A stretch of 64,000 bases of DNA from Peptococcaceae bacterium UBA6096 (GCA_002435905.1 DIWW01000016.1:8389-72388); one strand, 5' to 3'; shown: positions 1 through 11,301, counted from the first letter of the stretch. The notes: generated by a model from the sequence alone, not told the origin. Program-made: numbers and translations.

Positions 1-1138
1 TGCGCGACATTATCATTTTTTCTATTGTTCTTGATCGCAGTTGCTCGGGGGAAATGTATAAAAGTGTGGCTGTACCATTCGCTATGCGTTCAAATGCATC
101 TGAACGTTCAATAGGACTTAGCAACCCATTTACGGTAACTGCATCAATAATGCCGAATTCATTCAGATTGTCTACCTGATCCTTCATCAGAGACTGGAGC
201 GGCGAAATAACAACAGTCAAACCGTGAACGGTCTTGCCCGACATCAACGCCGGCAACTGGAATGTAATTGACTTGCCCCCTCCAGTAGGAAAGACCGCAA
301 GTAGTGATTTACCATCGACAGCTGCTTGGGCTGCTTTTTCTTGAAGAGGCTCGCCGTTATATGTACGAAAACTATCATATCCGAATATTTTTTTCAGCTC
401 CTTGTGGATATTCAGCACTTCTGAACAGTAACTGCACCCGGCATCACAAGGAGTGTTTCGCAGAAATTTTATTACATTTTCAATCTTCGGATAATTTTTA
501 AGAAGCCACAGAGGTGTAATTGAATGATAATCATCGCTTCCGATCAGAGCAAGTGCATAGGCTAACTCCACAGGATAATGCTTAATCAATAGCGAGATAT
601 CAGCATTTGAGCATATTTTGCCTTTAAATTCGATCGCAATGAGTTTTTCTACATTGGATCCATATGGTACAAAATTTATATAATCAAAAAAGCTTTTGAA
701 TTCCTCAAATTGATATAATAGACAGCAGTATATTTGCTTCATTTGTGATGATAGCGTGTTGAAAGCATTGACTTCATCATAAAAGAGCTTTTCTGCTTTT
801 TGAGCGTCATTAAGCGGATTATTAAGTTCATCTGATTGGAGCTTATCATCCTTCAATAAAGCGTGGTAAGGCCTCTTTGGGAAGAGCAGTGGAGAAAGAT
901 ATAAAGTATCAATATATTTATCAGTAATGCCTCCACTTATGTGAGGCTTGATGAACACCATATCATGGTGAAAAATATTGTGCCCACAGAGGAATTCTGT
1001 TCCGGAGATAAAGGCACAAAAATCTCGCACAGATGCGCTGTGAAACGTGGATCGATCACTGCGCACTGCACCTAAATCATGTATTTTTTTATCATCGACT
1101 CCTACTTCGCTATCGATAAATACAATCGATTTTGCCAT
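1..1138 (-). CDS. RecQ-family SF2 DNA helicase with N-terminal DnaQ-like (DEDD) exonuclease domain; N-terminal part only, the rest lies beyond the left window edge
   Basis: Absent from the ORF track because it runs off the window. My translation from ATG 1138-1136 (GGAG RBS at 1145-1148) reads MAKSIVFIDSEVGVDD...GHNIFHHDM (Exo I/II-like motifs). It continues ...LLAVFPTGGGKSITFQLPAL...VVISPLQSLMKDQV (RecQ motifs I and Ia) and stays open to position 1. Confidence 0.75.
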   Translation of the reverse strand, partial: MAKSIVFIDSEVGVDDKKIHDLGAVRSDRSTFHSASVRDFCAFISGTEFLCGHNIFHHDMVFIKPHISGGITDKYIDTLYLSPLLFPKRPYHALLKDDKLQSDELNNPLNDAQKAEKLFYDEVNAFNTLSSQMKQIYCCLLYQFEEFKSFFDYINFVPYGSNVEKLIAIEFKGKICSNADISLLIKHYPVELAYALALIGSDDYHSITPLWLLKNYPKIENVIKFLRNTPCDAGCSYCSEVLNIHKELKKIFGYDSFRTYNGEPLQEKAAQAAVDGKSLLAVFPTGGGKSITFQLPALMSGKTVHGLTVVISPLQSLMKDQVDNLNEFGIIDAVTVNGLLSPIERSDAFERIANGTATLLYISPEQLRSRTIEKMIMSR

Positions 1139-1420
1139 TTTACTCTCCTTCGAAAATGCTTCTTGCCTCATATTTCAACAATATCTACCGATTTTGACTA
1201 ATCGCCATCGTTCAATACTCAATAAGTAATATCAACTGGCGTATATCCATTACCAGTAATATCTTGCCAAAGCAAGTTGCTATGTCATAATTATCCATTG
1301 GAGAATATTGCTAGCCAATTGATCGCGGCGACGTAATTTCTAATAACCCCGTCCTTCTGGATCATTTTATTTATGGGGCAGGCATTCCTTGCTCCCCCTG
1401 CAATTTATAAATTCATCAAA

Positions 1421-4327
1421 TCAATTCTCTAAATAATTGAGCATATTGTCATCTACCGGTACCTTGATATAAAATTTAATATTTACAATTGAAAGTTCAG
1501 CACCTTCATTATTCTTAATTTTTTCTTGCTTGAAATCATAGGGTTCCAAATCCCCCATATAATAGAAATCCGCCCCTTCCCCATCGCTCTTTTTGACAAA
1601 CAAAGGAATTCTTAACCCCTCTTTATAATTCTTTATTTGAACAACCTCGGGTGAGGATAATGTCACTCTATTACGAGTCATCCAGTTAAACTGGTATTTA
1701 TTGATAAAGTAATCCTCATATTTTGTGCTTTCGGTAATATCATCTTTCTTTTCATAAGTTACAAAAATCGGACATGTTTTATTTTTTATCCTATATCCAT
1801 ACATGGTTGATGCTTCATCTTTTTCCCAATTTAATATTTTACAAACATCCTTACGAGAATACTTCTGATAAATCAAAAATCCATCATAGTATTTATCTAA
1901 AGAAAATGCAGCATCAAATTTCTGGATGGCATATTTTAGAGTATCCAGAAGAAAAAGTTTGAAATACTCGTTGCTCGTTGCATCATATAGACTTGAAGAA
2001 ATTTCAAACAATTTTTCCTGAAACGATACACTACCTTTTACCTTGTATTTTTCTTGATCCTGCGCCTTGAGGAATTCTGCATTTAGGCATGCCACTGAAG
2101 ATGTTATTGTCTTATCACTCGGAAAATAACCAAATTGTTCGTTGATGGTTTGCATAAAAGCATCATACGAAACCTTGCCCTTATCAATGAGCATTTTCAG
2201 AAGCAAGATATCCTCGATTCTTTTGGCATTACAAATTTCTTTAGAATAAAATTCTAATAACTTCATTTCATTCTGGGATAGTCTTCCCATAATGGACGTT
2301 TCAATTTTAGATATAAAAGAATAATATGACCCCGCATATTCTACATAAGCGTATGGATCTCGACTACCGTGCTCAGTAAAATCACACATATCAGGAATTT
2401 TTCCAAGTTTAAACTTTAATAGTCGATAGTCTTCAACCATGTCTTTTTTATTTGAAAGATTGGTCGAATTGATTGCATCAAATATTCTCTGTTTTGTTAT
2501 GAAATCAAAATTGATTGTTGAAGAACCCGGAATAAAGCTGCTTCCACTATTAATGAGCTTTCTAATATTATCTTTATTATATGAACTATCTCCATAAAGC
2601 GCTATAGGCACTAAATAATTATTTGCGTAGTTGCCGATAAAATCAACGACTGTGAGATATTCTTTCTCTGAATTTTTTCTCAAACCTCTTCCTAGTTGCT
2701 GTACAAAAACGATTGCTGATTGAGTTGGTCGAAGCATAATTATCTGATTTACGGATGGTATATCGACGCCTTCATTAAAAATATCAACTGTAAATATATA
2801 GTCTAATGCATTTTTACCCTCATCTTGCTCAAGACGTTTAATACTATCTTCTCTTAGTGATTCGCTACTACTCCCATTCAGAGCTATGGTCCTGTACCCA
2901 TGTTTTAGAAACTCGTTTGCTAGATATTTTGCTTCTTCATTTCGACTACAAAAGACCAGTCCTTTTATTCTACCTTTGTCACAACCATAAAACTCCGCAA
3001 AATTCTTAATTTTGTCAATGCGCTCATTACTCGTCAAAATATTGAAATCCGCCTTATCATCGAGAAGAACCCCATCAACCTCTATGTCGCTAACCCCGTA
3101 ATAATGAAACGGCACTAACATGTTTTCTTCTAGTGCTTGGTTAAGCCTTATTTCATAAGCAATATTATAGTCAAATGTTTTATATATATCATATCCATCT
3201 GTGCGTTCTGGTGTAGCAGACATCCCAAGAAGAAACTTAGGTGTAAAATACTCGATTATCTTTTGATAGGTGTTGGCACCCGAACGATGTACTTCATCAA
3301 TTACGATGTAATCGAAATAATCCTTAGGAAAACTACTGAGTGTATCATCCTTTGACAGGGTTTGGATTGTTGAAAAAATGAAATCAGCATTTATTGATCT
3401 TTCATGACCGCTTAAAATACCCATTGTTTTTTTATATCCAAATATTGTCTTATAACTTGTCATTGCCGCTTTTGCAATATTCTCTCTGTGAATAATAAAC
3501 AATAGGCGCCTTGGATCAAATTTTAAAGCATCAAACGCCGATAAATATGTCTTGCCGGTTCCTGTAGCAGAAATAAGCAACGCTTTATTTTTACCTTCCA
3601 AACGTAATTTATCCAACGAGGCTAAGGCATTGATTTGCATTTTATTTGGACTAATTCGTTTAATATTTAAAATATTTGATTCAATCTCACCATTATATAA
3701 ACTGTTGGTTTTTGAATTACTATTTCGTATAAGCTTTTGATCATTATATATTTTTGCATATTCATCGATCCATGCTTCATCTACCATTGTAGCGTTTTCA
3801 TAGGTTTGATCAAATTCCTGTAGCGTATTGATAATTAAAGCACCTGCTTCTGATGTAGATACTTTAATGTTCCATTCCTTATTCATAGATAAAGCATTCT
3901 GTGTTAAATTACTGCTACCAACGATTAAAGAATAAATTTCGCCTTTTTTAAAAATATATCCCTTGGCATGAAAGTTACCCTCCGTAACAATCTTAAGCTT
4001 GATATTTTTTAATGATAACAATCGTTTCAAAGCTGCAGGCTCTGTAAAATTTTGGTACTGTGATGCAACAATTTTCCCCTTAATGCCTTTCCCCTCAAGC
4101 TCTTTTAATGTATTTATCAATACTGCAACACCGCTATTGGTCACAAATGCAACTGAAAAAAAGAACTCCTCACAATTCCGAAGTTCTTTGATCAAGTTGG
4201 TTAAGATTTTTAGGCCGCGCTTGCTGTCATTTATTAACAAACATGGTTGATACTCTTCCAAAGAAGCTGTCGTACTATTAATAAATCCAGTATATAAGCT
4301 ATCTGATAAATTCTTTTCAGTATTCAT
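1421..4327 (-). CDS. PLD-family (single HKD) nuclease domain + SF2 (ResIII/DEAH) helicase + C-terminal DUF3427-like region, 968 aa
   Basis: N-terminus has NFHAKGYIF...VGSSNLTQNAL (HxK...GSxN PLD motif). Helicase motifs: ISATGTGKTYLSA (Walker A), VIDEVHRSG (DEVH), LLGMSATPER (SAT), VQQLGRGLR (motif VI). The ~350-aa C-terminal region resembles the DUF3427 architecture. Very AT-rich. Confidence 0.85.
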   Translation of the reverse strand: MNTEKNLSDSLYTGFINSTTASLEEYQPCLLINDSKRGLKILTNLIKELRNCEEFFFSVAFVTNSGVAVLINTLKELEGKGIKGKIVASQYQNFTEPAALKRLLSLKNIKLKIVTEGNFHAKGYIFKKGEIYSLIVGSSNLTQNALSMNKEWNIKVSTSEAGALIINTLQEFDQTYENATMVDEAWIDEYAKIYNDQKLIRNSNSKTNSLYNGEIESNILNIKRISPNKMQINALASLDKLRLEGKNKALLISATGTGKTYLSAFDALKFDPRRLLFIIHRENIAKAAMTSYKTIFGYKKTMGILSGHERSINADFIFSTIQTLSKDDTLSSFPKDYFDYIVIDEVHRSGANTYQKIIEYFTPKFLLGMSATPERTDGYDIYKTFDYNIAYEIRLNQALEENMLVPFHYYGVSDIEVDGVLLDDKADFNILTSNERIDKIKNFAEFYGCDKGRIKGLVFCSRNEEAKYLANEFLKHGYRTIALNGSSSESLREDSIKRLEQDEGKNALDYIFTVDIFNEGVDIPSVNQIIMLRPTQSAIVFVQQLGRGLRKNSEKEYLTVVDFIGNYANNYLVPIALYGDSSYNKDNIRKLINSGSSFIPGSSTINFDFITKQRIFDAINSTNLSNKKDMVEDYRLLKFKLGKIPDMCDFTEHGSRDPYAYVEYAGSYYSFISKIETSIMGRLSQNEMKLLEFYSKEICNAKRIEDILLLKMLIDKGKVSYDAFMQTINEQFGYFPSDKTITSSVACLNAEFLKAQDQEKYKVKGSVSFQEKLFEISSSLYDATSNEYFKLFLLDTLKYAIQKFDAAFSLDKYYDGFLIYQKYSRKDVCKILNWEKDEASTMYGYRIKNKTCPIFVTYEKKDDITESTKYEDYFINKYQFNWMTRNRVTLSSPEVVQIKNYKEGLRIPLFVKKSDGEGADFYYMGDLEPYDFKQEKIKNNEGAELSIVNIKFYIKVPVDDNMLNYLEN

Positions 4328-4733
4328 TATTTATTTCACCATTTACTATTTGTTTAACAATCGGAATATCGGCCGCTGCCCAATCGAGTGTCAGCAGTTT
4401 ATCTTTTGTTAACCACACATGATCCGCATGTTCTTTTCTAACAAATTCTTTTTTATTGACGTTGCAAATATAGCTATGCATGATAATCCCAAAATCAGGA
4501 TACTGGTGTTGTACAGTCAAAAAGAAGTTTTTCTCTTCTATATTTACCTCGATATCCATTTCTTCTTTCAGTTCTCTTTTAAGTGCATCAACACAACTTT
4601 CCCCAGGTTCGACCTTTCCCCCTGGGAATTCATATTTATGGGATAAATATTCATGCTGATTCTCGCCTCTTTGCATACATAGGATTTCTTTGTCATAAAT
4701 TATTACTGCGGCAACAACCTCTATTGTTTTCAT
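4317..4733 (-). CDS. NUDIX hydrolase (MutT-like nucleoside triphosphate pyrophosphohydrolase)
   Basis: Nudix box GGKVEPGESCVDALKRELKEEMDI fits GX5EX7REUXEEXGU. The stop overlaps the downstream helicase start by 11 nt (4317-4327). Confidence 0.9.
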   Translation of the reverse strand: MKTIEVVAAVIIYDKEILCMQRGENQHEYLSHKYEFPGGKVEPGESCVDALKRELKEEMDIEVNIEEKNFFLTVQHQYPDFGIIMHSYICNVNKKEFVRKEHADHVWLTKDKLLTLDWAAADIPIVKQIVNGEINNEY

Positions 4734-5008
4734 AATCGGCCTCGCTTAATAAAATTTAATAAATATCACTATCCAGTCCTAACAAGTTAAGTATATAGAA
4801 ATTTCCCTATTCAATAACCTGCCCTGCATACTCGATTCATTCTCAATAAATATTTTTATATATTCCACGAAAATTATAATAACCCTTTAATTATCATTTA
4901 GACGTCATATAAAATATTAAAGCAATATTTAAGGATTGTATAATCACTCCCAGCAATCAATGCTATACTTATATTGACATAATTTCAATATAAGCGGGGC
5001 ACGCAGCA

Positions 5009-6043
5009 ATGAACGAGATCTTGATCTTCCAAAACATCTCCCCGTCCCTGGAATCCTATTGGCGTTCCATCATTCTGTTTGGCCGCAACGTGGCCTCCTA
5101 CAAATTCGCTTTGGCAAAATCCTTGCTGGAAATCCTCCCATCCGGCCAATCGGAAATAACCCTGGAGGCTTTGGCGGAGCCCTTTTCCCGCAACCTTTGC
5201 GAACATTTGAAGACTGCTCCCAAACAAGCCACCAGCAGCAGCAGCCAATTCCTGGATTCTTGCAGAGCCTTCAACGACGGTGGGATTTCACAAGAAGAAT
5301 TACTTGATGTCACGCGTAAAAAAGGGTTTAATAATGTCATTGATGCTTTTCATGTGGTCAACGACGATCCCATCCCGCTTCAGTTCTATACCAAGGACTA
5401 CTCAGGCCGCAGCAAAAAAATCATCCTCACCGATGATCTATTCAGACTTAGTGAATCACTGGCCTTTGATGATTTTTCCTCCGAAGCCGAATCCCGCTGG
5501 AATCTGGTGGAAACCGCATGGGAGCTTGGTGTATCAAGAAATCTGCTGAATGTCCAATACGACGGCCAAAACAAACTGCTGTTCATTTATGGTAAACTTC
5601 GCCGAAAGCAGGTCACCTCGGCCATCAGCGCTTTGAACGGCTACCAAAAGGGCAAATGCTTCTACTGCTTTGGCGACATCGCCATCCACGGCTCCCTCCA
5701 TCTCGCCTGTGACGTGGATCATTTTTATCCCTATACCCTGCAGCCCTTTCATCCTCAAATCAATTTCAATGGCGTCTGGAATCTGGTGCTCAGCTGTCCC
5801 AACTGCAACCGCGGCCCCAAGGGAAAATTCGCGCGAATCCCAGCCCTCAAATACCTGGAACGGCTCCATCGCCGTAATGAATTCCTGATCAGCAGCCACC
5901 ATCCCCTCCGGGAAACCATCATGAACCAAACCGGCCAAACCCCGCCAGACAGAATAAAATTCCTCAAAGATATGGACAGAATATCCATCGATCTCTTGAT
6001 CCACCGCTGGGAAACACCCCAGACTGGCCCAACCACATTCTAA
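5009..6043 (+). CDS. HNH endonuclease domain protein with ~210-aa uncharacterised N-terminal domain
   Basis: C-terminal KGKCFYCFGD...CDVDHFYPY...WNLVLSCPNCNRGPKGKF shows CxxC...DH...N...CxxCN, a beta-beta-alpha-Me HNH signature. No clear SD sequence upstream. Confidence 0.8.
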   Translation: MNEILIFQNISPSLESYWRSIILFGRNVASYKFALAKSLLEILPSGQSEITLEALAEPFSRNLCEHLKTAPKQATSSSSQFLDSCRAFNDGGISQEELLDVTRKKGFNNVIDAFHVVNDDPIPLQFYTKDYSGRSKKIILTDDLFRLSESLAFDDFSSEAESRWNLVETAWELGVSRNLLNVQYDGQNKLLFIYGKLRRKQVTSAISALNGYQKGKCFYCFGDIAIHGSLHLACDVDHFYPYTLQPFHPQINFNGVWNLVLSCPNCNRGPKGKFARIPALKYLERLHRRNEFLISSHHPLRETIMNQTGQTPPDRIKFLKDMDRISIDLLIHRWETPQTGPTTF

Positions 6044-6062
6044 GAACACCAAGGAGCATCAT

Positions 6063-6650
6063 ATGGACAAAACCCTCCAATACTACAACGAAAACGCCAA
6101 AGCCTTTGTGGAAGGCACCTGGGGCGCCGATGTTTCCGGTCTCTACGCCTTCTTGCAGAAATACGTCAAACCCGGCGCCGCCATCCTGGACCTGGGCTGC
6201 GGCTCCGGCCGGGACAGCCTTTATTTCCTTTCCAAGGGCTATCAAGTATGCGCCGTGGACGGTTCAGAGGAACTATGCAAAATGGCGGCGGAGCGGATTG
6301 GCCGGCCGGTAGAATGCAAGCTGTTCCAGGACATCGACGACGTAGACCAGTTTGACGGCATTTGGGCCTGTTCCTCCCTGCTTCACGTCCCATATGACCA
6401 GCTGCCGTCTATCCTGGACAAACTGCACACCGCCCTCAAGGCCAAGGGCTATCTGTACCTATCTGCCAAGTACGGCACCTTCTCCGGCGAACGGAACGGA
6501 CGCTACTTTACGGATCTGGACGAGGCCCGGCTTGAGGATCTCCTCAAAAAAGCTAAGGGCTTCAGCATCGTCGAAACCCGCATCACCACCGATGTCCGGC
6601 CCGGACGCGAAGACGAAAAGTGGCTCAACGCCATCCTTCAAAAGCTATAG
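6063..6650 (+). CDS. Class I SAM-dependent methyltransferase (small-molecule/protein type)
   Basis: Motif I ILDLGCGSGRDS, post-I AVDGSEEL, motif II-like FDGIWACSSLLHVP. RBS AAGGAG lies 6 nt upstream. Starts 19 nt after the HNH gene. No DPPY/NPPY or C5-MTase motifs. Confidence 0.85.
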   Translation: MDKTLQYYNENAKAFVEGTWGADVSGLYAFLQKYVKPGAAILDLGCGSGRDSLYFLSKGYQVCAVDGSEELCKMAAERIGRPVECKLFQDIDDVDQFDGIWACSSLLHVPYDQLPSILDKLHTALKAKGYLYLSAKYGTFSGERNGRYFTDLDEARLEDLLKKAKGFSIVETRITTDVRPGREDEKWLNAILQKL

Positions 6651-6686
6651 CGCAAAAATCATCGAACCGTAAGGAGGCCGCCCATC

Positions 6687-6941
6687 ATGATCGCATGGAA
6701 AACCGAGTACAAAGGCACCAAAATCGAGGTTCGCAACAGCCACCAAAAAATCGAGCTGGTCGTAGATGACAATATCGTAGATGCCTGCCAGGACTTGAAA
6801 TTCAAAGGCAAATCCATGGAGCTAAAGGCTGATCACGATGGTCACCTGATCCGCTGCGTCTTTGAAAAAAAGGTTCTGTGCATGATGGCCAAAATCTATT
6901 ACGACGACCGGATGCTGGAGGGCAAAGAAATCGTCATCTGA
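6687..6941 (+). CDS. Hypothetical 84-aa protein
   Basis: Strong RBS AAGGAGG 9 nt upstream. Starts 36 nt after the methyltransferase gene and is followed by a terminator hairpin. No recognisable motif. Confidence 0.55.
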   Translation: MIAWKTEYKGTKIEVRNSHQKIELVVDDNIVDACQDLKFKGKSMELKADHDGHLIRCVFEKKVLCMMAKIYYDDRMLEGKEIVI

Positions 6942-6942
6942 A

Positions 6943-6985
6943 AACAACGCAAGCCATGATCTATGTGGCTTGCGTTGTTAATTTA
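6943..6985. terminator. Hairpin terminator between the convergent 6687-6941 (+) gene and the DUF2779/micro-ORF (-) unit
   Basis: AACAACGCAAGCCA-loop-TGGCTTGCGTTGTT, a perfect 14-bp stem, followed by AATTT. Confidence 0.6.
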
Positions 6986-7026
6986 TATGCTGTTGATGCG
7001 ACAGCCCCGCTCATAATTCATCCATG

Positions 7027-7107
7027 TTATTTCCAGCTGAAAGACTTGATCAGCTTATACAGCACAATGATCGGCAGCAACAGAATATAGAATATGACTC
7101 TGATCAT
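7027..7107 (-). CDS. Possible 26-aa hydrophobic micro-protein (MIRVIFYILLLPIIVLYKLIKSFSWK)
   Basis: My own translation; too short for the ORF track. RBS GGGAGG lies 6 nt upstream of the ATG. Starts 38 nt downstream of the DUF2779 stop on the same strand. Predicted single TM helix. Confidence 0.3.
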   Translation of the reverse strand: MIRVIFYILLLPIIVLYKLIKSFSWK

Positions 7108-7145
7108 CCACCGCCTCCCTGCCTTCATCTAGTCAGTACTCTGCC

Positions 7146-9122
7146 TCAGCAACCAACCATAGCCTTCCATCCCTCATAGATCATCACCATGGCAAAGGTG
7201 TCCAATTCACAATACTTCAGCAAGGCCTTCTCGATTTCCCCCCGCTCATAATCCGACATCTCTTCAAACTGCATCCTGGCGTAGGCGGTCATGGCAGCGC
7301 CGCCGTCCCGCAATTCATTGGCCGCGCTGAGCAATTCATAATCCTTATCCGAGACATCCTCAAACATTTTAGGCAGCAGCTTATACGGATCCAGCACCTT
7401 GCCATTCTCCATGACGATCCATTGCCAGTCCTTATAGTTCAAACTGGCAATGCCGCCAGCCGCGCCATAGATGGGCTTTGAATATTTTTGCTGCAGATAG
7501 GGAGAGCTGTTGAGGATCGCCGGCAGCACATACTTGATCGAATTTGAGCCTTTGGTGGCGGGATCATAGTAGTATCGCTTTTCCAACTCACAGAGGTCGA
7601 TCATCGAACGCGGCCCCGACCAGGCGTCCACACAGCCGTGGGTCGATGTCGTAATGCTGCGGATAAAGCAGCTCAGTGCCTCCCGATCCGGGATGTCGCT
7701 GGGATCCTCCTGCAGCTGCCTGTAGATCAGGTTCAAATAGCTGTTTTCGTGGGCGGCATAGCGGAAGATGCTGCCTTCGTCCTGCTCCAGTGCCTGCTTC
7801 AGGCTGCGCAAAAAATCATAATTAGGAAACACCCCCGGCACTGCATTCAAATACTGCCCCCGGTGCTCGATCCGACCGTCTGCATGGACCATGTGGTGCG
7901 AATATTGAAAGGCGATCCCTTCATAAGGGTGTCTTCCCTTGTTGAAAGGAATGGCCATCATGGAGGTTTCAAAGTCAATAAAATGCAGCGGATAGATCCA
8001 AGTTTCCATTTCACGGCGCAGATTCTCTGCATCGATCCAATACGTCATGTCGTTGAACTTCGCTTTGCTCACCTGAAGCCATTGACGCTGGCTGGCCGAC
8101 AAGCCCGGTTTTGCGTCGCTTTTGGGATGGATATCCTCCTCCTGAAGGTTCTCCAGCTTGATGCACCGGTCACTCAAATATTGATCTTTCTTCCGGAAAT
8201 TCCAGATCTCCAGAATGTTGGGCTCTTGAAAATCCTCCTCCTCCCAACATAGGCATTCCTTCCAACATTCCTGGAAGCCGCTCTTGAGGCCCTTCGCTGC
8301 ATCCTCCGCAGTGACCTTAAATTCGCAGCCGGCGCATACCTTGGTCAAAACGGGTTGGATTTTCATATCCTTCTCATAGCAATCGGCCAAATAGGCCGCA
8401 TAGTCCCCAAAGCCGGCCGGCTGCCCATCCATTTCATAATTTTCACTGTAAATCATATCGCAGCAGTCATCTGCGTTGATACGGCATAGGATCGGCACGG
8501 AAAGGTCCTCGGCGCTCAGCCTTGGCGATACCGCAATGCTTTTTCTTCCCCTGGCATCCGTTATGATCCGAAACTTCTGGTTCAGACCGTTGGTAGGACA
8601 AAGGGCTTTTTTATCTGCAAGCATCAAGTAGGCCGCCACCGAGCATTCAGGCATTGCCTGCTGGAGGACGTATTTCTGAAAAGCTACATCATAGAGATAA
8701 GGCATCCATTCCGAGGTAATGGAGCCATCTTTATTGAGAAAGGCTGCATCGGAAGGGAATTCCACAGACTTAGCCTTGACCTCCACCAGCTCCAGCCGGG
8801 AACCCTTTTTGATCAGGATATCAACCCGCACAAACAGGTTCTCATAACAAACAGCCGCCTCATAGATGATCGCTTGATCTTGCTTCAGCAGTTCGCTGGT
8901 TTGCCGCAGCGCTTCCCTCTGCTCCAGCATCTTGACGTCATGACCGCCTGGGAAATAATGCTTGGCTAGCTCACCCACCTGAAAGCCCCCTTCGGCCAGG
9001 GCTTCCAGAAAGGAATCCTCCAGCTTCTGGTTGGCGTACGCCGGTTTACCGGTGTAGTAAAGCTTGGTGGGGCACTCCATGGCCAGTTTGAATCGGGATT
9101 TGGTCAAATATCTGGGCTGCAT
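7146..9122 (-). CDS. DUF2779-family protein with N-terminal PD-(D/E)XK (Cas4/RecB-like) nuclease fold and Cys cluster
   Basis: MQPRYLTKSRFKLAMECPTKLYY resembles the typical DUF2779-family N-terminus. RVDILIK...LELVEVKAKS gives D...ExK. Cys cluster CAGCEF...ECWKECLCW. I prefer the start at M25 (9122), which has GAAGG 7 nt upstream; the ORF track start is 9194. Confidence 0.7.
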   Translation of the reverse strand: MQPRYLTKSRFKLAMECPTKLYYTGKPAYANQKLEDSFLEALAEGGFQVGELAKHYFPGGHDVKMLEQREALRQTSELLKQDQAIIYEAAVCYENLFVRVDILIKKGSRLELVEVKAKSVEFPSDAAFLNKDGSITSEWMPYLYDVAFQKYVLQQAMPECSVAAYLMLADKKALCPTNGLNQKFRIITDARGRKSIAVSPRLSAEDLSVPILCRINADDCCDMIYSENYEMDGQPAGFGDYAAYLADCYEKDMKIQPVLTKVCAGCEFKVTAEDAAKGLKSGFQECWKECLCWEEEDFQEPNILEIWNFRKKDQYLSDRCIKLENLQEEDIHPKSDAKPGLSASQRQWLQVSKAKFNDMTYWIDAENLRREMETWIYPLHFIDFETSMMAIPFNKGRHPYEGIAFQYSHHMVHADGRIEHRGQYLNAVPGVFPNYDFLRSLKQALEQDEGSIFRYAAHENSYLNLIYRQLQEDPSDIPDREALSCFIRSITTSTHGCVDAWSGPRSMIDLCELEKRYYYDPATKGSNSIKYVLPAILNSSPYLQQKYSKPIYGAAGGIASLNYKDWQWIVMENGKVLDPYKLLPKMFEDVSDKDYELLSAANELRDGGAAMTAYARMQFEEMSDYERGEIEKALLKYCELDTFAMVMIYEGWKAMVGC

Positions 9123-9234
9123 ACACACGCCTTCTTTCTGCATCGGCTTGGATACACACAAAATGCTTCCAATCTCAAAGATTCCATGGATCATCGGATC
9201 CAGGTTCCCTAATTTCTATAATACACCCATTTTG

Positions 9235-9252
9235 TGTGCGATGGATCGCACA
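9235..9252. promoter_or_regulatory. Perfect 8+8 inverted repeat TGTGCGAT-GG-ATCGCACA in the divergent intergenic region (candidate operator)
   Basis: Read directly from the sequence. Lies between the divergent DUF2779 and GHKL ATPase genes. A TGGTAAAAT extended -10-like element sits at 9341-9349 on the + strand. Confidence 0.35.
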
Positions 9253-9399
9253 GATTAAATCGGCTTCTTGCCTGTTCTTAAATTCAAAGGCAAATCCAGG
9301 GATACAAAGGTCTGATCGATGCAAATTCTCTGATTATTTATGGTAAAATAGAACCAACACACCCACTGACTGAATCCCAAGGACGAGGAGGATGGAACC

Positions 9400-11301
9400 A
9401 TGACCATTTTCAAATTGCCGGTGGATCAACGGGTCATCGACATCGACTCCCGACGCTTTGCCTCGGTGGAAAAAGCCATTGTGGAGCTGATCACCAACAG
9501 CGACGACAGCTACAGCCGCATGGAGCAGGCAGAGCTGCCGGTCAGCGGCACCATAGCCATTCGCTATGAACGCCACCAAAGCGGCGCCGTGCTCATCGTT
9601 GCCGACCAGGCTGAAGGCATGTCCTTTGAGCAGCTTCATTCCGTCCTCTCCTATGGCGGGGCCTACAGCCAAATGGCCCGGGGGCTTGCCGGCGGCCGCG
9701 GCTACTTTGGCCGGGGCCTGAAGCAGGCCATCTACGGCCTGGGCCATGGCTGGATCGAAACGATCTACAAGGGCCGCTTCGGACGGGTCGATCTTTTTAC
9801 GGACGAAAACGGCGCCTATTTGTTTGATGACGGGGATCAGGACCGGGCAGCCCAAGAAAGAGACTATGCCCGTCTGGGCATTCCGGCCGAAGGCAACGGC
9901 ACCCAGGTGACCATCATCATTGAAAATCCCCAGACCAACATCCCTTATTTTAATTCTCTTGTTTTTTCCATTTCCAACAACATCTATCTGCGGGATATCC
10001 TGGGGCGGCGCCAGGTCAGCATGATTAATTTGAATCAGGCCAAAAGCAAGCAGACGGCCTTGCCCTTGGTTTATGCGGAACCGGAGGCTGATCTGCTGGT
10101 CGGCCCCGAGGCCCCGGGCCTGTTCCGATATCAAGAGGTCCAATATTCCTTTGACCTGACCTTAAAAAAGGCCCTGGATGCGGATTTGGTCCTGAAAGGC
10201 GACGAACGGACCAACGGTCTGCTGGTGATCTCCGGCACCGCCGTCTTTGACTGCCAATTTTTCCGTTTTGAAAACCAACTAGGCACCGAATATTTATTTG
10301 GTACGGTCCATTGTCCGGGATTGGCCAAAATGCTGGTTAATGGCAAGCCCATCATCAGCGACGAACGAGAAGGCTTGAATATGAAGGAGCCCTTTGCCGC
10401 AGCTTTTGGTGAAGCGGTGAGCGACATGATCGCCGGATACATCAAGAATGAACAAATCAGGCTGAGCCATGTGGATTATGCCAAGACCTCCATGCGCACC
10501 CGGAATATGATCCGGCAGGTTTTGCAGCGGATGAATCAGATCGCCATCGAAGATCTGGGGATCATCCTGCCCCCGGGCCCCGGTTCCGGCCGCTATGGCC
10601 AATTTGATACGGGACGGCCTTCCGTCCTACGTTTCACGACCCCCTTCTATTACCGAAAGGTTGACCATCCCTTTCATGTCAAGATGATCGCGGACCGCAA
10701 TCAAATTCAGGACCAGGAGCTTTTGTCAATAACCTATCAATTGCCGGACAGCATCCGGATCGAGCCCAACTTCACAGGCGTGATGGTGGCGGATCTGCCA
10801 GAAAATGGCCATTTGGAATGGACGGTCATCGGCAATATGATCGGCGCAAAAGGGATCATCGAGGTGGCCACGGGAGATTTTCGGGCCTCAGCGGAAATCG
10901 TCATTGCAGAGAACGCCTCAGGGAAAGGGTACGGCAATGTCTCCAGCAAGCCCAGCATCCCATGGAATATGGACAACTCCATCGATATCTTCGCCGGCTA
11001 TGAACTGCGGAATCTGGACAATGATCTGGACCGGGCGGTTTATCTTCCAGAGGAGCGTCTGATCATCATCAACACAGAGGCCCCCACCGTTCGGCTCTAT
11101 GTCAACGGGCAAGGCCATTTCAAGGATGGCGCCCGGCTCTTGCTGGCGGAATTGTTGTTGGATGTCATCACCGATGAGCTTTCCCGCCGCTACGTGGACC
11201 GGACCACCCAGAAGGGGCAGGCCGAAGCCTACAAGCAGGCGAAGCATGATTTGATCCGGCGCTACGGCTTGGAGATCCATTCGATTCTACTGGGGGAATA
11301 G
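9400..11301 (+). CDS. GHKL-superfamily (MORC/Hsp90/MutL-like, HATPase_c_3-type) ATPase, 633 aa, large uncharacterised C-terminal region
   Basis: Bergerat-fold motifs: N-box VELITNSDDSY, G1-like VADQAEGMS, G2-like GGRGYFGRGLKQAIYG. RBS GAGGAGG. Confidence 0.75.
   Translation: MTIFKLPVDQRVIDIDSRRFASVEKAIVELITNSDDSYSRMEQAELPVSGTIAIRYERHQSGAVLIVADQAEGMSFEQLHSVLSYGGAYSQMARGLAGGRGYFGRGLKQAIYGLGHGWIETIYKGRFGRVDLFTDENGAYLFDDGDQDRAAQERDYARLGIPAEGNGTQVTIIIENPQTNIPYFNSLVFSISNNIYLRDILGRRQVSMINLNQAKSKQTALPLVYAEPEADLLVGPEAPGLFRYQEVQYSFDLTLKKALDADLVLKGDERTNGLLVISGTAVFDCQFFRFENQLGTEYLFGTVHCPGLAKMLVNGKPIISDEREGLNMKEPFAAAFGEAVSDMIAGYIKNEQIRLSHVDYAKTSMRTRNMIRQVLQRMNQIAIEDLGIILPPGPGSGRYGQFDTGRPSVLRFTTPFYYRKVDHPFHVKMIADRNQIQDQELLSITYQLPDSIRIEPNFTGVMVADLPENGHLEWTVIGNMIGAKGIIEVATGDFRASAEIVIAENASGKGYGNVSSKPSIPWNMDNSIDIFAGYELRNLDNDLDRAVYLPEERLIIINTEAPTVRLYVNGQGHFKDGARLLLAELLLDVITDELSRRYVDRTTQKGQAEAYKQAKHDLIRRYGLEIHSILLGE

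What the first reader, a model, noticed from the sequence alone, without database searches (positions are those of the whole stretch)
1..4733. AT-rich three-gene module NUDIX -> PLD(HKD) nuclease/SF2 helicase/DUF3427 -> exonuclease-RecQ: candidate uncharacterised nucleic-acid defence system
Seen in sequence: three co-directional minus-strand genes. The NUDIX stop overlaps the 968-aa helicase start by 11 nt, which suggests translational coupling. A 282-nt gap then leads to a RecQ-type helicase carrying an N-terminal DEDD exonuclease domain, truncated by the window edge. Hand-counted 60-nt lines give ~28% GC at 1981-2040 versus ~57% at 5161-5220, so the module is compositionally foreign to the rest of the window. 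Established: a single HKD motif defines PLD-family nucleases (Nuc/BfiI/NgoFVII type); the Walker A, DEVH, SAT and QxxGRxxR motifs define an active SF2 helicase; the Nudix box is intact; DUF3427 has no assigned function. Inference: a nuclease-helicase fusion combined with a nucleotide pyrophosphatase and a second exonuclease-helicase looks like an anti-phage or anti-plasmid surveillance module. The arrangement does not match the named systems I can recall. DISARM needs DrmA/DrmB and a methylase. In Mokosh the helicase is N-terminal, the PLD is C-terminal, and there is no DUF3427. Hachiman, Gabija and Nhi also have different architectures.
Basis: partly seen in the sequence, partly recalled or inferred. 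Interest (0 to 1): 0.75.

Follow-up and report, generated by a model that had tools for sequence, protein, structure and literature searches.

The report
SauUSI-type restriction enzyme with NUDIX partner
The "new defence system" is mostly a known one: a SauUSI-family enzyme that cuts methylated-cytosine DNA, with the small NUDIX gene long known to travel with it, next to a large unrelated helicase; what is new is a testable idea of what the NUDIX partner does.

Summary

The interpretation as an unnamed system is not correct. The 968-aa protein is an end-to-end homologue of SauUSI, the Staphylococcus aureus Type IV restriction enzyme for 5mC/5hmC DNA (PDB 7CLG, E 5e-221; PADLOC mREase_IV, E 4e-226). 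Its catalytic His/Lys, ATPase motifs and 5mC pocket are conserved. DUF3427 is SauUSI's coupler plus SRA-like target-recognition domain.

The upstream NUDIX gene is the partner already reported in 2011. It is not needed for restriction (2012). In my loci, 67 of 102 NUDIX relatives lie within 3 kb of a SauUSI-like gene.

The third gene is the start of a 1603-aa protein: an exonuclease-like domain, a RecQ helicase and a UvrD helicase. It has no conserved neighbours and is absent from all 212 SauUSI- or NUDIX-seeded loci. It is a neighbour in the island, not a system component.

One new lead emerged. The NUDIX is 50% identical to Bacteroides fragilis Q5LBB1, which hydrolyses 5-methyl- and 5-hydroxymethyl-dCTP at about 5e6 M-1 s-1. 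These are the modifications SauUSI attacks. It may clear such nucleotides from the pool. This is inferred, not shown.

The parts
4317..4733 (-). NUDIX hydrolase, 138 aa. It is the conserved partner gene of SauUSI-family enzymes and a probable 5-substituted (d)CTP pyrophosphohydrolase.
   Evidence: Pfam NUDIX E 4e-16. PADLOC PDC-S07 E 9e-46. 50% identical over 133 aa to PDB 3GWY = Q5LBB1_BACFN. Nudix box at residue 39. A SauUSI-like gene lies within 3 kb in 67 of 102 related loci.
4317..4327 (-). 11-nt overlap between the NUDIX stop codon and the SauUSI-like start codon, consistent with translational coupling.
   Evidence: Read directly from the sequence. Overlapping or near-abutting junctions are also seen in homologous loci such as L151, L152 and L153.
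1421..4327 (-). SauUSI-family Type IV modification-dependent restriction endonuclease, 968 aa.
   Evidence: PDB 7clg_A (953 aa) E 4.7e-221, aligned 7-968 against 8-953. PADLOC mREase_IV PDLC03658 E 3.9e-226 over 6-968. Pfam PLDc_2, ResIII, Helicase_C and DUF3427.
3743..4327 (-). PLD-family nuclease domain, about aa 1-195, with catalytic H120/K122 and the GSSNLT motif.
   Evidence: PF13091 E 1.9e-10 and RE_NgoFVII E 8e-6. H120/K122 align with SauUSI H119/K121. SauUSI H119A is the nuclease-dead mutant (PMC7913695).
2438..3655 (-). SF2 helicase-like ATPase/translocase, about aa 225-630.
   Evidence: ResIII E 2.5e-37 and Helicase_C E 2e-13. Walker A at 254-260, DEVH at 344, SAT at 370, motif VI at 543-550.
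1424..2251 (-). DUF3427 region, aa 693-968: the coupler plus the SRA-like target-recognition domain for 5mC/5hmC.
   Evidence: PF11907 E 1.3e-80. Pocket residues Y845, F855, V856, D872 and W882 align with SauUSI Y831, F841, I842, D858 and W868; M829 is replaced by Y843 (PMC7913695).
1139..1420 (.). 282-nt intergenic spacer between the SauUSI-like gene and the large helicase gene.
   Evidence: The promoter/terminator scan was uninformative: 26 promoter-like sites against 22 expected, and no terminator-like site in the gap.
1..1138 (-). First 379 codons of a 1603-aa protein. The exonuclease-like domain and a helical region with conserved cysteines span aa 1-245. The RecQ-type SF2 helicase starts at about aa 246. 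The UvrD-type SF1 helicase lies beyond the window edge.
   Evidence: Identical contigs L218 and L304 give the complete 1603-aa gene. Pfam on the full-length homologues L061 and L060 finds DEAD, Helicase_C, UvrD-helicase and UvrD_C. NCBIfam recQ_fam 283.6 bits against a 219.8 cutoff. N-terminal fold result.
4734..4995 (.). AT-rich leader upstream of NUDIX (about 29% GC) and the right-hand boundary of the low-GC island.
   Evidence: GC steps from 0.26-0.31 to 0.52 at about position 5000. In identical contigs the island runs about 12.6 kb, ending about 7.6 kb beyond the window's left edge.

Best explanation
The locus is an ordinary member of the SauUSI family of Type IV modification-dependent restriction systems. 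It is carried on a horizontally acquired AT-rich island of about 12.6 kb.

**The 968-aa enzyme.** By homology with SauUSI, its C-terminal SRA-like domain flips out 5-methyl- or 5-hydroxymethyl-cytosine in foreign DNA. This switches on the SF2 ATPase, which translocates along the DNA. The dimeric single-HxK PLD nuclease then cuts, repeatedly, and shreds the modified DNA.

**The NUDIX gene.** It is translationally coupled upstream and is the family's usual partner. It is not needed for restriction. The most likely role (inferred) is a house-cleaning pyrophosphohydrolase for 5-methyl-dCTP, 5-hydroxymethyl-dCTP and 5-methyl-CTP. That would have two effects:
1. Modified dCMP salvaged from shredded invader DNA, or made by phage enzymes, could not be re-incorporated into the host chromosome. 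The chromosome would otherwise become a SauUSI target.
2. The hm-dCTP pool of hmC-containing phages would be drained.

**The downstream gene.** It encodes a 1603-aa protein with an exonuclease-like domain, a RecQ helicase and a UvrD helicase. It is a separate stand-alone gene that shares the island and is not a required component.
For: **Identity of the enzyme (shown).**
- End-to-end match to SauUSI.
- All catalytic, ATPase and 5mC-pocket residues conserved except M829 to Y843 (PMC7913695).

**Partner status of NUDIX (shown).**
- 11-nt overlap in the window.
- A SauUSI-like gene directly downstream in 18 of the 23 closest NUDIX loci.
- A SauUSI-like gene within 800 nt in 49 of 79 loci seeded with 3GWY.
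- A SauUSI-like gene within 3 kb in 67 of 102 loci overall, spread over Bacillota, Bacteroidota, Proteobacteria, Spirochaetota and others.
- The linkage is published (PMC3141236), and deleting the nudix gene does not relieve restriction (PMC3312211).

**NUDIX chemistry (inferred).**
- 50% identity over the full length to Q5LBB1_BACFN.
- For that enzyme, kcat/Km is 4.8e6 for 5-Me-dCTP, 4.4e6 for 5-hydroxymethyl-dCTP and 6.7e6 for 5-Me-CTP, with much lower activity on canonical NTPs (PMC5158307).
- The best NCBIfam similarities include NudG, the pyrimidine dNTP diphosphatase whose best substrate is 5-methyl-dCTP (PMC5158307 Table 3).

**Independence of the third gene (shown).**
- No homologue in 53 + 80 + 79 loci seeded on SauUSI or NUDIX.
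- No conserved neighbour in 80 loci of its own family.
- Different GC: 0.40 against 0.33-0.35 for the pair.
- A 282-nt gap separates it from the SauUSI-like gene.
Against: - No substrate data exist for this NUDIX or for the S. aureus one. At 50% identity, specificity can differ.
- The protein falls below NCBIfam's NudG and MutT equivalog cutoffs (88.9 against 156 bits).
- Many SauUSI homologues lack a NUDIX neighbour. All 11 Fusobacterium loci do, so the partner is dispensable.
- The gene most similar to Q5LBB1 in my loci (Bacteroides hominis, 88% identity) is not next to a SauUSI-like gene.
- The PADLOC PDC-S07 model also hits core-genome NUDIX genes. It is reported in 99% of Enterobacter genomes (PMC12851794).
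- Some association of the large helicase with modification-dependent enzymes is real. A SauUSI-like gene lies 10 nt upstream of a truncated copy in L054/L055. SauUSI-like genes are also nearby in L101, L107 and L133, and McrC in 3 loci. A functional link cannot be excluded.
Confidence: 0.8

Rival explanations
1. NUDIX, the PLD-helicase-DUF3427 protein and the exonuclease-RecQ(-UvrD) protein form one integrated, previously undescribed three-component defence system. The second helicase-nuclease would process or amplify the breaks made by the first.
For: - The three genes are co-directional and lie in one AT-rich island.
- In L054/L055 a SauUSI-like gene of a different subfamily (33% identity, PADLOC PDLC03659) is followed after 10 nt by a 72%-identical but truncated copy of the same helicase.
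- L133 carries the helicase, NUDIX and a fragmented SauUSI-like gene within 10 kb. L101 and L107 also pair the helicase with SauUSI-like genes.
- The authors of PMC6765204 suggested testing DUF3427 enzymes together with RecQ-like helicases.
Against: - 0 of 212 loci seeded on SauUSI or NUDIX contain the helicase. This includes the closest SauUSI relatives at 59-63% identity.
- At least 75 of 80 helicase loci have no SauUSI-like gene, and no neighbour is conserved.
- Gene order and orientation differ among the few co-occurrences.
- SauUSI alone restricts in vivo and in vitro (PMC3141236, PMC7913695).
- GC content differs between the pair and the helicase.
Confidence: 0.1
2. The NUDIX is a generic MutT/NudG-type mutagenic-nucleotide sanitiser, for example for 8-oxo-dGTP or 2-OH-dATP. 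It would be co-inherited with SauUSI with no link to modified cytosine. Alternatively, as first suggested in 2011, it deals with products of the enzyme's ATP hydrolysis.
For: - Public sources name close homologues '8-oxo-dGTP diphosphatase'.
- NCBIfam MutT models score E 1e-19 to 1e-21.
- PDC-S07 hits core genes in Enterobacter (PMC12851794).
- About 25 of 102 subfamily loci show no restriction-related neighbour, and lower-identity relatives in Ca. Scatosoma never do.
- The 2011 suggestion is in PMC3141236.
Against: - The closest characterised relative, at 50% identity, prefers 5-substituted cytidine triphosphates by a wide margin (PMC5158307).
- Similarity to MutT is much weaker: PDB 1mut E 2.5e-9 against 1e-37 for 3GWY.
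- A generic sanitiser has no reason to be translationally coupled to a 5mC/5hmC-specific nuclease across at least five phyla.
- From general knowledge of the family: Nudix enzymes act on nucleoside diphosphates linked to another moiety and do not hydrolyse free pyrophosphate.
Confidence: 0.2
3. The 1603-aa protein (exonuclease-like domain, RecQ, UvrD) is itself an unrecognised stand-alone defence or anti-mobile-element enzyme. It would tend to sit beside modification-dependent restriction systems while acting independently of them.
For: - In this genome it lies in a foreign AT-rich island.
- It is 55-82% identical across distant phyla, which suggests horizontal transfer.
- Its neighbourhoods are variable, with recurrent Fic/wHTH (6 loci), McrC (3), SauUSI-like (3 in the clustering, up to 5 counting other co-occurrences) and RhuM (2) genes.
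- Its RecQ part resembles the defence helicases DpdF and PsyrT (E 1e-97 and 3e-82), and its UvrD part resembles GajB (E 3e-48).
- There is no full-length PADLOC or NCBIfam model.
Against: - It is present in more than 590 species genomes. In many loci it sits among ordinary metabolic genes, including a Bacteroides finegoldii record. That fits a repair or recombination helicase equally well.
- No phage record carries the full-length architecture, and only 11 plasmid records do.
- I made no enrichment test against a background.
Confidence: 0.25

Closest known systems
SauUSI (Staphylococcus aureus SAUSA300_2431; PDB 7CLG), a Type IV ATP-dependent 5mC/5hmC-specific restriction endonuclease
   Same: - Same length class (968 aa against 953 aa) and the same domain order: PLD nuclease, SF2 ATPase, coupler, SRA-like TRD.
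- Alignment covers 7-968 against 8-953.
- Catalytic H/K, Walker A/B, motif III, motif VI and five of the six 5mC-pocket residues are conserved.
- A NUDIX gene sits immediately upstream, as in S. aureus (PMC3141236, PMC3312211).
   Different: - The sequence is diverged. The closest genomic relatives in my loci are 59-63% identical.
- The pocket residue that fills the gap left by the flipped base is Tyr (Y843) instead of Met-829.
- The recognition sequence and activity are untested.
- The gene lies in a low-GC island of a roughly 52% GC host, from environmental metagenomes.
Q5LBB1_BACFN (PDB 3GWY) and E. coli NudG (Orf135): Nudix pyrophosphohydrolases for 5-substituted (d)CTP
   Same: - 50% identity over the whole protein to Q5LBB1.
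- Same size and an intact Nudix box.
- NudG is among the best NCBIfam similarities.
   Different: - Below NCBIfam's NudG equivalog cutoff.
- Substrates are untested.
- The characterised enzymes were studied as mutagenic-nucleotide sanitisers with no reference to restriction. The nearest Q5LBB1 relative in my loci (B. hominis, 88% identity) is not next to a SauUSI-like gene.
PADLOC PDC-S07, a single-gene 'phage defence candidate'
   Same: The window NUDIX matches the model over its full length at E 9e-46.
   Different: PDC-S07 is a bioinformatic candidate with no reported function. It is also detected in about 99% of Enterobacter genomes (PMC12851794), so a hit does not show a defence role.
S. 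aureus DinG and human WRN: a DEDD 3'-5' exonuclease fused to the N-terminus of a helicase
   Same: The third protein has an N-terminal RNase H-like domain whose best structural match is the DinG exonuclease domain. A RecQ-family helicase core follows, as in WRN.
   Different: - No sequence-level match to any exonuclease family.
- Foldseek E is only 2.6e-3.
- Motif III has an invariant Asn instead of His or Tyr.
- The protein carries a second, UvrD-type SF1 helicase.
- It lacks the RQC/HRDC region needed to reach the RecQ equivalog score (330 against 640 bits).
McrBC and other modification-dependent (Type IV) systems
   Same: Same logic: attack DNA carrying 5mC or 5hmC, with no cognate methyltransferase. 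McrC genes and one McrB-like gene occur next to relatives of the helicase and of the NUDIX respectively.
   Different: Unrelated proteins: a GTP-dependent AAA+ motor plus a PD-(D/E)xK nuclease, against a single-chain PLD/SF2/SRA enzyme.

Membership tests
SauUSI-family Type IV restriction endonuclease | N-terminal PLD-family nuclease with a single HxK catalytic motif | tested here: met
   PF13091 E 1.9e-10. H120/K122 align with SauUSI H119/K121.
SauUSI-family Type IV restriction endonuclease | Central SF2 helicase-like ATPase with motifs I, II, III and VI | tested here: met
   ResIII E 2.5e-37 and Helicase_C E 2e-13. GTGKT at 256-260, DEVH at 344, SAT at 370, QQLGRGLR at 543.
SauUSI-family Type IV restriction endonuclease | C-terminal coupler plus SRA-like TRD (DUF3427) with the 5mC-binding pocket | tested here: met
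   PF11907 E 1.3e-80 over 693-966. Y845, F855, V856, D872 and W882 match Y831, F841, I842, D858 and W868. M829 is replaced by Y843 (PMC7913695).
SauUSI-family Type IV restriction endonuclease | End-to-end collinearity with SauUSI | tested here: met
   7clg_A E 4.7e-221, 7-968 against 8-953. PADLOC PDLC03658 covers 6-968 against 7-953 of 953.
SauUSI-family Type IV restriction endonuclease | ATP-dependent cleavage of 5mC/5hmC DNA and not of unmodified DNA | not testable with these tools
   Needs biochemistry or in vivo restriction assays.
SauUSI-family Type IV restriction endonuclease | Host lacks a C5-cytosine methyltransferase that would create target sites | tested here: inconclusive
   tblastn with one C5 methyltransferase query finds nothing in the 64-kb window. 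The rest of the genome is not available.
NudG/Q5LBB1-type 5-substituted (d)CTP Nudix pyrophosphohydrolase | Intact Nudix box GX5EX7REUXEEXGU | tested here: met
   G39 KVEPG E SCVDALK RELKEE MDI. Only the last G is replaced, by D.
NudG/Q5LBB1-type 5-substituted (d)CTP Nudix pyrophosphohydrolase | Score above NCBIfam's curated equivalog cutoff for NudG (PRK10546) | tested here: not met
   88.9 bits against a cutoff of 156. It should not be filed as a NudG orthologue.
NudG/Q5LBB1-type 5-substituted (d)CTP Nudix pyrophosphohydrolase | Close full-length homology to a biochemically characterised member | tested here: met
   50.4% identity over 133 aa to 3GWY/Q5LBB1. Kinetics are in PMC5158307.
NudG/Q5LBB1-type 5-substituted (d)CTP Nudix pyrophosphohydrolase | Preference for 5-Me-dCTP or 5-hm-dCTP over canonical dCTP | not testable with these tools
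   Needs enzyme kinetics.
DEDD (DnaQ-like) 3'-5' exonuclease, N-terminus of the third protein | Sequence match to an exonuclease family (RNase_T, DNA_pol_A_exo1 and similar) | tested here: not met
   No Pfam hit at E<0.01 for residues 1-240. A profile of 20 homologues finds nothing in PDB sequences; best E is 0.28, to an unrelated protein.
DEDD (DnaQ-like) 3'-5' exonuclease, N-terminus of the third protein | RNase H-like exonuclease fold | tested here: inconclusive
   Model pLDDT 87.8. The best Foldseek hits are all DEDD domains but weak: DinG 9ii8 E 2.6e-3 with TMq 0.46, and RNase AS with TMt about 0.5. No hit reaches E 1e-3.
DEDD (DnaQ-like) 3'-5' exonuclease, N-terminus of the third protein | Four invariant acidic residues plus a His or Tyr in motif III | tested here: inconclusive
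   D9, E11, D59 (and D77) and D111 are invariant in 61 homologues. The position five residues before D111 is an invariant Asn (N106), not His or Tyr. I did not superpose the residues on a solved active site.
RecQ family helicase (third protein) | NCBIfam recQ_fam subfamily cutoff, and the RecQ equivalog cutoff | tested here: met
   On the full-length 1603-aa protein, recQ_fam scores 283.6 against 219.8, which is met. The RecQ equivalog scores 330 against 640, which is not met. It is a RecQ-family core, not a RecQ orthologue.
   The helicase is found in 0 of 53, 0 of 80 and 0 of 79 loci seeded on SauUSI or NUDIX. All three families occur together only in L133, in a different order and with a fragmented SauUSI gene.

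The most novel reading that the evidence does not exclude
The NUDIX partner of SauUSI-family enzymes is a dedicated 5-methyl- and 5-hydroxymethyl-dCTP pyrophosphohydrolase. It would act as the missing self-protection arm of a Type IV restriction system. Modified dCMP released from shredded invader DNA, or made by phage, could then not be recycled into the host chromosome and provoke self-cleavage. It would also starve hmC phages of their special nucleotide.

A weaker addition: the adjacent 1603-aa protein (exonuclease-like domain, RecQ, UvrD) belongs to an unnamed family found in more than 590 species. That family may be a stand-alone defence gene that tends to settle beside modification-dependent nucleases.
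Probability: 0.4. Interest if true: 0.6.

Novelty: new member of a known kind. Interest (0 to 1): 0.33.

Why it matters
**As a defence system, the locus is not new.** SauUSI is among the best-studied Type IV enzymes, and its NUDIX neighbour has been on record since 2011.

**The value lies in joining two unconnected strands of literature.**
- The SauUSI papers left the function of the linked pyrophosphohydrolase open, and showed only that it is not needed for restriction.
- A Nudix specificity screen found that a homologue, 50% identical to this NUDIX, is a near-diffusion-limited 5-methyl- and 5-hydroxymethyl-dCTPase. That work did not mention restriction.

**The combined idea.** Modification-dependent restriction may come with nucleotide-pool hygiene. 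This would explain how cells tolerate an enzyme that attacks a base their own polymerase could incorporate from salvage. I found no paper that makes this link. It can be tested directly with purified protein and a nudix deletion strain.

**Annotation point.** PADLOC's orphan candidate PDC-S07 is, in part, simply the SauUSI partner gene.

Tried and rejected
1. **Extending the contig by an exact-match scan.** A 39-nt tag from the end of L220/L221 found 0 hits in metagenome contigs. I extended instead by looking up the window's own proteins. That reached the far island boundary but showed no integrase, tRNA or flanking repeats.
2. **Promoter and terminator scan of 1-5100.** It gave 26 promoter-like sites against 22 expected and no terminator in the 282-nt gap. 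It cannot say whether the helicase is co-transcribed.
3. **First fold search with the 379-aa model.** Only the RecQ part was matched. I had to re-model residues 1-245 alone.
4. **Sequence profile of the N-terminal domain against PDB.** Nothing was found.
5. **McrB-like neighbour as support for a link to modified cytosine.** The B. hominis NUDIX (88% identical to 3GWY) sits next to an MrcB_N/AAA_5 protein in strain Tbg-374. The same gene in a second strain does not (L225). That protein hits only PADLOC candidate PDC-M26A. This is weak support and I did not rely on it.
6. **A shared four-gene island with L133** (helicase, AAA_14/DUF4143, NUDIX, SauUSI). The two AAA_14 proteins are not significantly similar (E 0.17), and the L133 SauUSI gene is fragmented. 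I rejected it as common ancestry.
7. **The roughly 650-aa 'Exo-RecQ' proteins that dominate the homologue list.** In the loci I examined these are contig-truncated or split copies of the 1600-aa gene. L057 is split into 601 + 997 aa, and L054 is cut by an integrase cassette. They are not a separate short family.
8. **Identity of PDB 5X1X** (44% identical 'MutT'). No paper was found.
9. **No background-controlled test of defence-gene enrichment** around the helicase family.


Full report
**1. Checking the observation**

- A 138-aa NUDIX gene at 4733..4317.
- A 968-aa gene at 4327..1421, whose ATG lies 11 nt upstream of the NUDIX stop.
- A 282-nt spacer at 1139-1420.
- A third co-directional gene that starts at 1138 and runs off the left edge after 379 codons.

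The hand-counted GC values are exact: 28.3% and 56.7%. The region 1-4985 is 34.7% GC and the rest of the window is 51.8%, with a sharp step at about position 5000.

Pfam finds NUDIX in the small protein. In the large one it finds PLDc_2, ResIII, Helicase_C and DUF3427, the last at E 1.3e-80.

**2. What the central gene is**

The 968-aa protein is a full-length homologue of SauUSI, the Type IV restriction enzyme of Staphylococcus aureus.
- phmmer against PDB sequences gives 7clg_A (953 aa) at E 4.7e-221, aligned 7-968 against 8-953.
- PADLOC's 'mREase_IV' model PDLC03658, which is 953 positions long, matches end to end at E 3.9e-226.

SauUSI cleaves DNA carrying 5-methylcytosine or 5-hydroxymethylcytosine in an ATP-dependent way (PMC3141236). 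Its crystal structure shows four parts: a dimeric PLD nuclease, an SF2 translocase, a helical coupler, and a C-terminal SRA-fold domain that flips out the modified cytosine (PMC7913695). The coupler and the SRA domain together are what Pfam calls DUF3427.

Mapping the published residues through the alignment gives the following:

| SauUSI | Window protein | Role |
|---|---|---|
| H119/K121 | H120/K122 | PLD catalytic motif |
| T256 | T260 | Walker A |
| Y831, F841, I842, D858, W868 | Y845, F855, V856, D872, W882 | 5mC pocket |
| M829 | Y843 | Residue that fills the gap left by the flipped base (changed) |

**3. The NUDIX gene**

The linkage is already published.
- Xu et al. 2011 noted a conserved MutT/NUDIX gene (SAUSA300_2432) next to sauUSI. 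They reported at least 60 SauUSI-like enzymes linked to such a gene and left its function open (PMC3141236).
- Monk et al. 2012 deleted the gene in strain Newman. The strain did not gain the transformable phenotype of the sauUSI mutant, so the NUDIX is not required for restriction (PMC3312211).

I re-measured the linkage in four ways:

| Seed | Result |
|---|---|
| Window SauUSI-like protein, 53 genome loci | NUDIX adjacent in 6, in three different arrangements; absent from all 11 Fusobacterium loci |
| Window NUDIX, 23 loci at 45% identity or more | SauUSI-like gene directly downstream in 18 |
| Window NUDIX, 57 loci at 43% identity or less (mostly Ca. Scatosoma and other Clostridia) | SauUSI-like gene downstream of the NUDIX in none; one locus (L217, Clostridium perfringens) has one about 1 kb upstream; likely a housekeeping paralogue |
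| 3GWY sequence, 79 loci | SauUSI-like gene within 800 nt in 49 |
| Combined set, 102 loci (a few are duplicates) | SauUSI-like gene within 3 kb in 67 |

The linked pairs span several phyla. Tight or overlapping junctions like the one in the window are common.

**4. What the NUDIX probably does (inferred)**

- Its closest solved relative is 3GWY, at E 1e-37 and 50% identity over 133 residues.
- 3GWY is Q5LBB1_BACFN. Nguyen et al. 2016 measured kcat/Km of 6.7e6, 4.8e6 and 4.4e6 M-1 s-1 on 5-Me-CTP, 5-Me-dCTP and 5-hydroxymethyl-dCTP. Activity was about 50-fold lower on 5-OH-dCTP and low on canonical NTPs (PMC5158307).
- E. coli NudG, whose best substrate is 5-methyl-dCTP, is among the best NCBIfam similarities, though below its curated cutoff.

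These are the two modifications that SauUSI recognises in DNA. Neither body of literature makes the connection, and three full-text searches found no paper that does.

The mechanism I consider most likely is pool sanitation. After SauUSI and host exonucleases degrade 5mC DNA, salvaged 5-methyl-dCMP could be re-phosphorylated and incorporated into the chromosome. That would create targets for the cell's own enzyme, and the NUDIX would prevent it. The same activity would drain hm-dCTP in cells infected by hmC phages.

This fits three facts: the 2012 deletion result, which points to an accessory rather than essential role; the translational coupling; and the absence of the partner from some lineages.

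It remains an inference for four reasons:
- There are no kinetics for this protein.
- At 50% identity, specificity may differ.
- The nearest Q5LBB1 relative in my loci (Bacteroides hominis, 88% identity) is not SauUSI-linked.
- PADLOC's PDC-S07 model, which the NUDIX hits at 9e-46, is also found in 99% of Enterobacter genomes (PMC12851794). That hit says nothing about defence.

**5. The third gene**

The window's NUDIX and SauUSI proteins occur on 17 and 11 public contigs respectively. Over 10 kb, L218 and L219 are base-for-base identical to the window. They show that the truncated gene encodes 1603 aa.

Pfam on full-length homologues (L061, L060) finds a RecQ-type SF2 core at about 250-630 and a UvrD-type SF1 helicase at about 1045-1480. 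Nothing is called in residues 1-240.

Family membership:
- The full-length protein passes only NCBIfam's generic recQ_fam cutoff and no equivalog.
- It matches no full-length PADLOC model. Its halves resemble DpdF/PsyrT and GajB.

The exonuclease claim:
- No sequence-level support.
- An AlphaFold model of residues 1-245 (pLDDT 87.8) gives, as its best PDB matches, the DEDD exonuclease domain of S. aureus DinG (E 2.6e-3, probability 1.0), RNase AS and several polymerase proofreading domains. None reaches E 1e-3.
- D9, E11, D59, D77 and D111 are invariant. So are N106, at the position of the motif III His/Tyr, and a C231-x3-C235-x2-C238 cluster.
- I rate the exonuclease fold as likely and the activity as uncertain.

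**6. Is the third gene part of the system?**

- The family is very widespread. More than 590 species genomes matched, at 55-82% identity across Bacteroidota, Bacillota, Kiritimatiellia and Deltaproteobacteria.
- Clustering the three ORFs on each side in 80 loci found no conserved neighbour. The largest real cluster is a Fic/wHTH protein in 6 loci. Next come McrC in 3, SauUSI-like in 3 and RhuM in 2. Many loci hold plain metabolic genes.
- None of the 212 loci seeded on SauUSI or NUDIX contains it.

Counter-examples exist:
- In L054/L055 a SauUSI-like gene of the other PADLOC subtype is followed after 10 nt by a 72%-identical copy truncated by an integrase cassette.
- L101, L107 and L133 also pair the two families, in other orders and orientations.

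I read this as co-residence in variable or defence islands rather than a shared mechanism. I give the integrated three-gene system about 10%.

**7. The island**

In the extended contigs the low-GC block runs about 12.6 kb. Its contents and GC values are:

| Gene | GC |
|---|---|
| NUDIX | 0.35 |
| SauUSI-like | 0.33 |
| Large helicase | 0.40 |
| 263-aa protein with a weak PASTA match | 0.33 |
| Small ORFs | not measured |
| AAA_14/DUF4143 ATPase | 0.38 |
| Ppnp-like protein, 105 aa | 0.37 |

Composition then returns to 47-50% at a sigma-54 activator gene. No tRNA, integrase or flanking direct repeat marks the ends.

On the window side, the normal-GC stretch 5009-11301 also looks like variable or defence content:
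- an HNH-like 344-aa ORF;
- a SAM methyltransferase with a PADLOC mad2 match;
- a DUF2779 protein;
- a HATPase_c_3 protein.

After that come TRAP-transporter genes.

**8. Verdict**

It is a defence locus, but a known one.
- The locus is a new member of the SauUSI family with its known NUDIX partner. A large stand-alone helicase lies beside it.
- The residual interest is the testable proposal that the partner is a 5-methyl/5-hydroxymethyl-dCTP sanitiser. A lesser point is the unnamed 1600-aa exonuclease-like/RecQ/UvrD family.

Noticed in passing
window 1-1138 (-); full gene in L218:13596-18407: The truncated gene belongs to an unnamed family of about 1600-aa proteins: an exonuclease-like domain, a Cys cluster, a RecQ SF2 helicase and a UvrD SF1 helicase. 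The family is present in more than 590 species genomes at 55-82% identity across distant phyla. It has no conserved neighbour and no dedicated PADLOC or NCBIfam model. RefSeq calls it only 'RecQ family ATP-dependent DNA helicase'.
   Followed up: partly
window 5009-6043 (+): A 344-aa ORF just outside the AT-rich island, with an HNH-like Cys/His motif (CFYCF...DHFYP...CPNCN). It has no Pfam or NCBIfam hit and only weak PADLOC PtuB (Septu HNH) similarity, E 3.5e-6. The gene callers of some identical contigs skip it and call a 121-aa ORF on the other strand.
   Followed up: partly
window 6063-6650 (+): A 195-aa class I SAM methyltransferase (Methyltransf_25, TehB-like) that matches the PADLOC model mad2 at E 3e-17. 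It is not a C5 DNA methyltransferase by Pfam.
   Followed up: no
window 7146-9194 (-) and 9400-11301 (+): A 682-aa DUF2779 protein and a 633-aa HATPase_c_3 (GHKL ATPase) protein sit divergently between the island and the TRAP-transporter genes. Neither has a PADLOC or NCBIfam hit. They may be further uncharacterised island content at normal GC.
   Followed up: no
L304:18118-21864 (same strain, beyond the window's left edge): The AT-rich island continues with a 263-aa protein (weak PASTA match), small ORFs, an AAA_14/DUF4143 ATPase (433 aa) and a Ppnp-like pyrimidine/purine nucleoside phosphorylase (105 aa). GC then returns to about 50% at a sigma-54 activator. No integrase, tRNA or flanking repeats were found.
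   Followed up: partly
L054:6844-11965 and L055 (Logan SRR11070359/61): A SauUSI-like enzyme of the second PADLOC subtype (PDLC03659, 1048 aa, preceded by a 72-aa HTH gene and with no NUDIX) is followed after 10 nt by a 654-aa copy of the Exo-like/RecQ protein. That copy is 72% identical to the window's and appears to be cut off by an HTH plus two-integrase cassette.
   Followed up: partly
L220 and L221 (JGI 3300001567, 3300000568): In two older JGI assemblies of the same locus, the SauUSI-like and helicase genes are broken into 3 and 2-3 ORFs. This could be real pseudogenisation in some strains or homopolymer sequencing errors in the AT-rich DNA.
   Followed up: no
L229:6001-12378 (Phascolarctobacterium MAG): Here the NUDIX homologue is followed by a C5 cytosine DNA methyltransferase, an AIPR abortive-infection protein and a protein with a DrmE C-terminal domain. 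This is a different cytosine-methylation-related context for the same NUDIX subfamily. DUF2075/Schlafen-type helicases flank it in 4 other loci (L233, L245, L269, L277).
   Followed up: partly
L224:3872-6411 (Bacteroides hominis Tbg-374): The NUDIX most similar to the characterised 5-Me-dCTPase (88% to 3GWY) sits divergently against a 699-aa MrcB_N + AAA_5 (McrB-like) protein that matches PADLOC candidate PDC-M26A. The second B. hominis strain (L225) lacks this neighbour.
   Followed up: partly
PADLOC model PDC-S07 (literature): PDC-S07 is reported as the most prevalent 'defence system' in Enterobacter, at 99% of genomes (PMC12851794). Since the model is a NudG/MutT-like NUDIX, such counts probably reflect a housekeeping gene and inflate defence-system tallies.
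   Followed up: no
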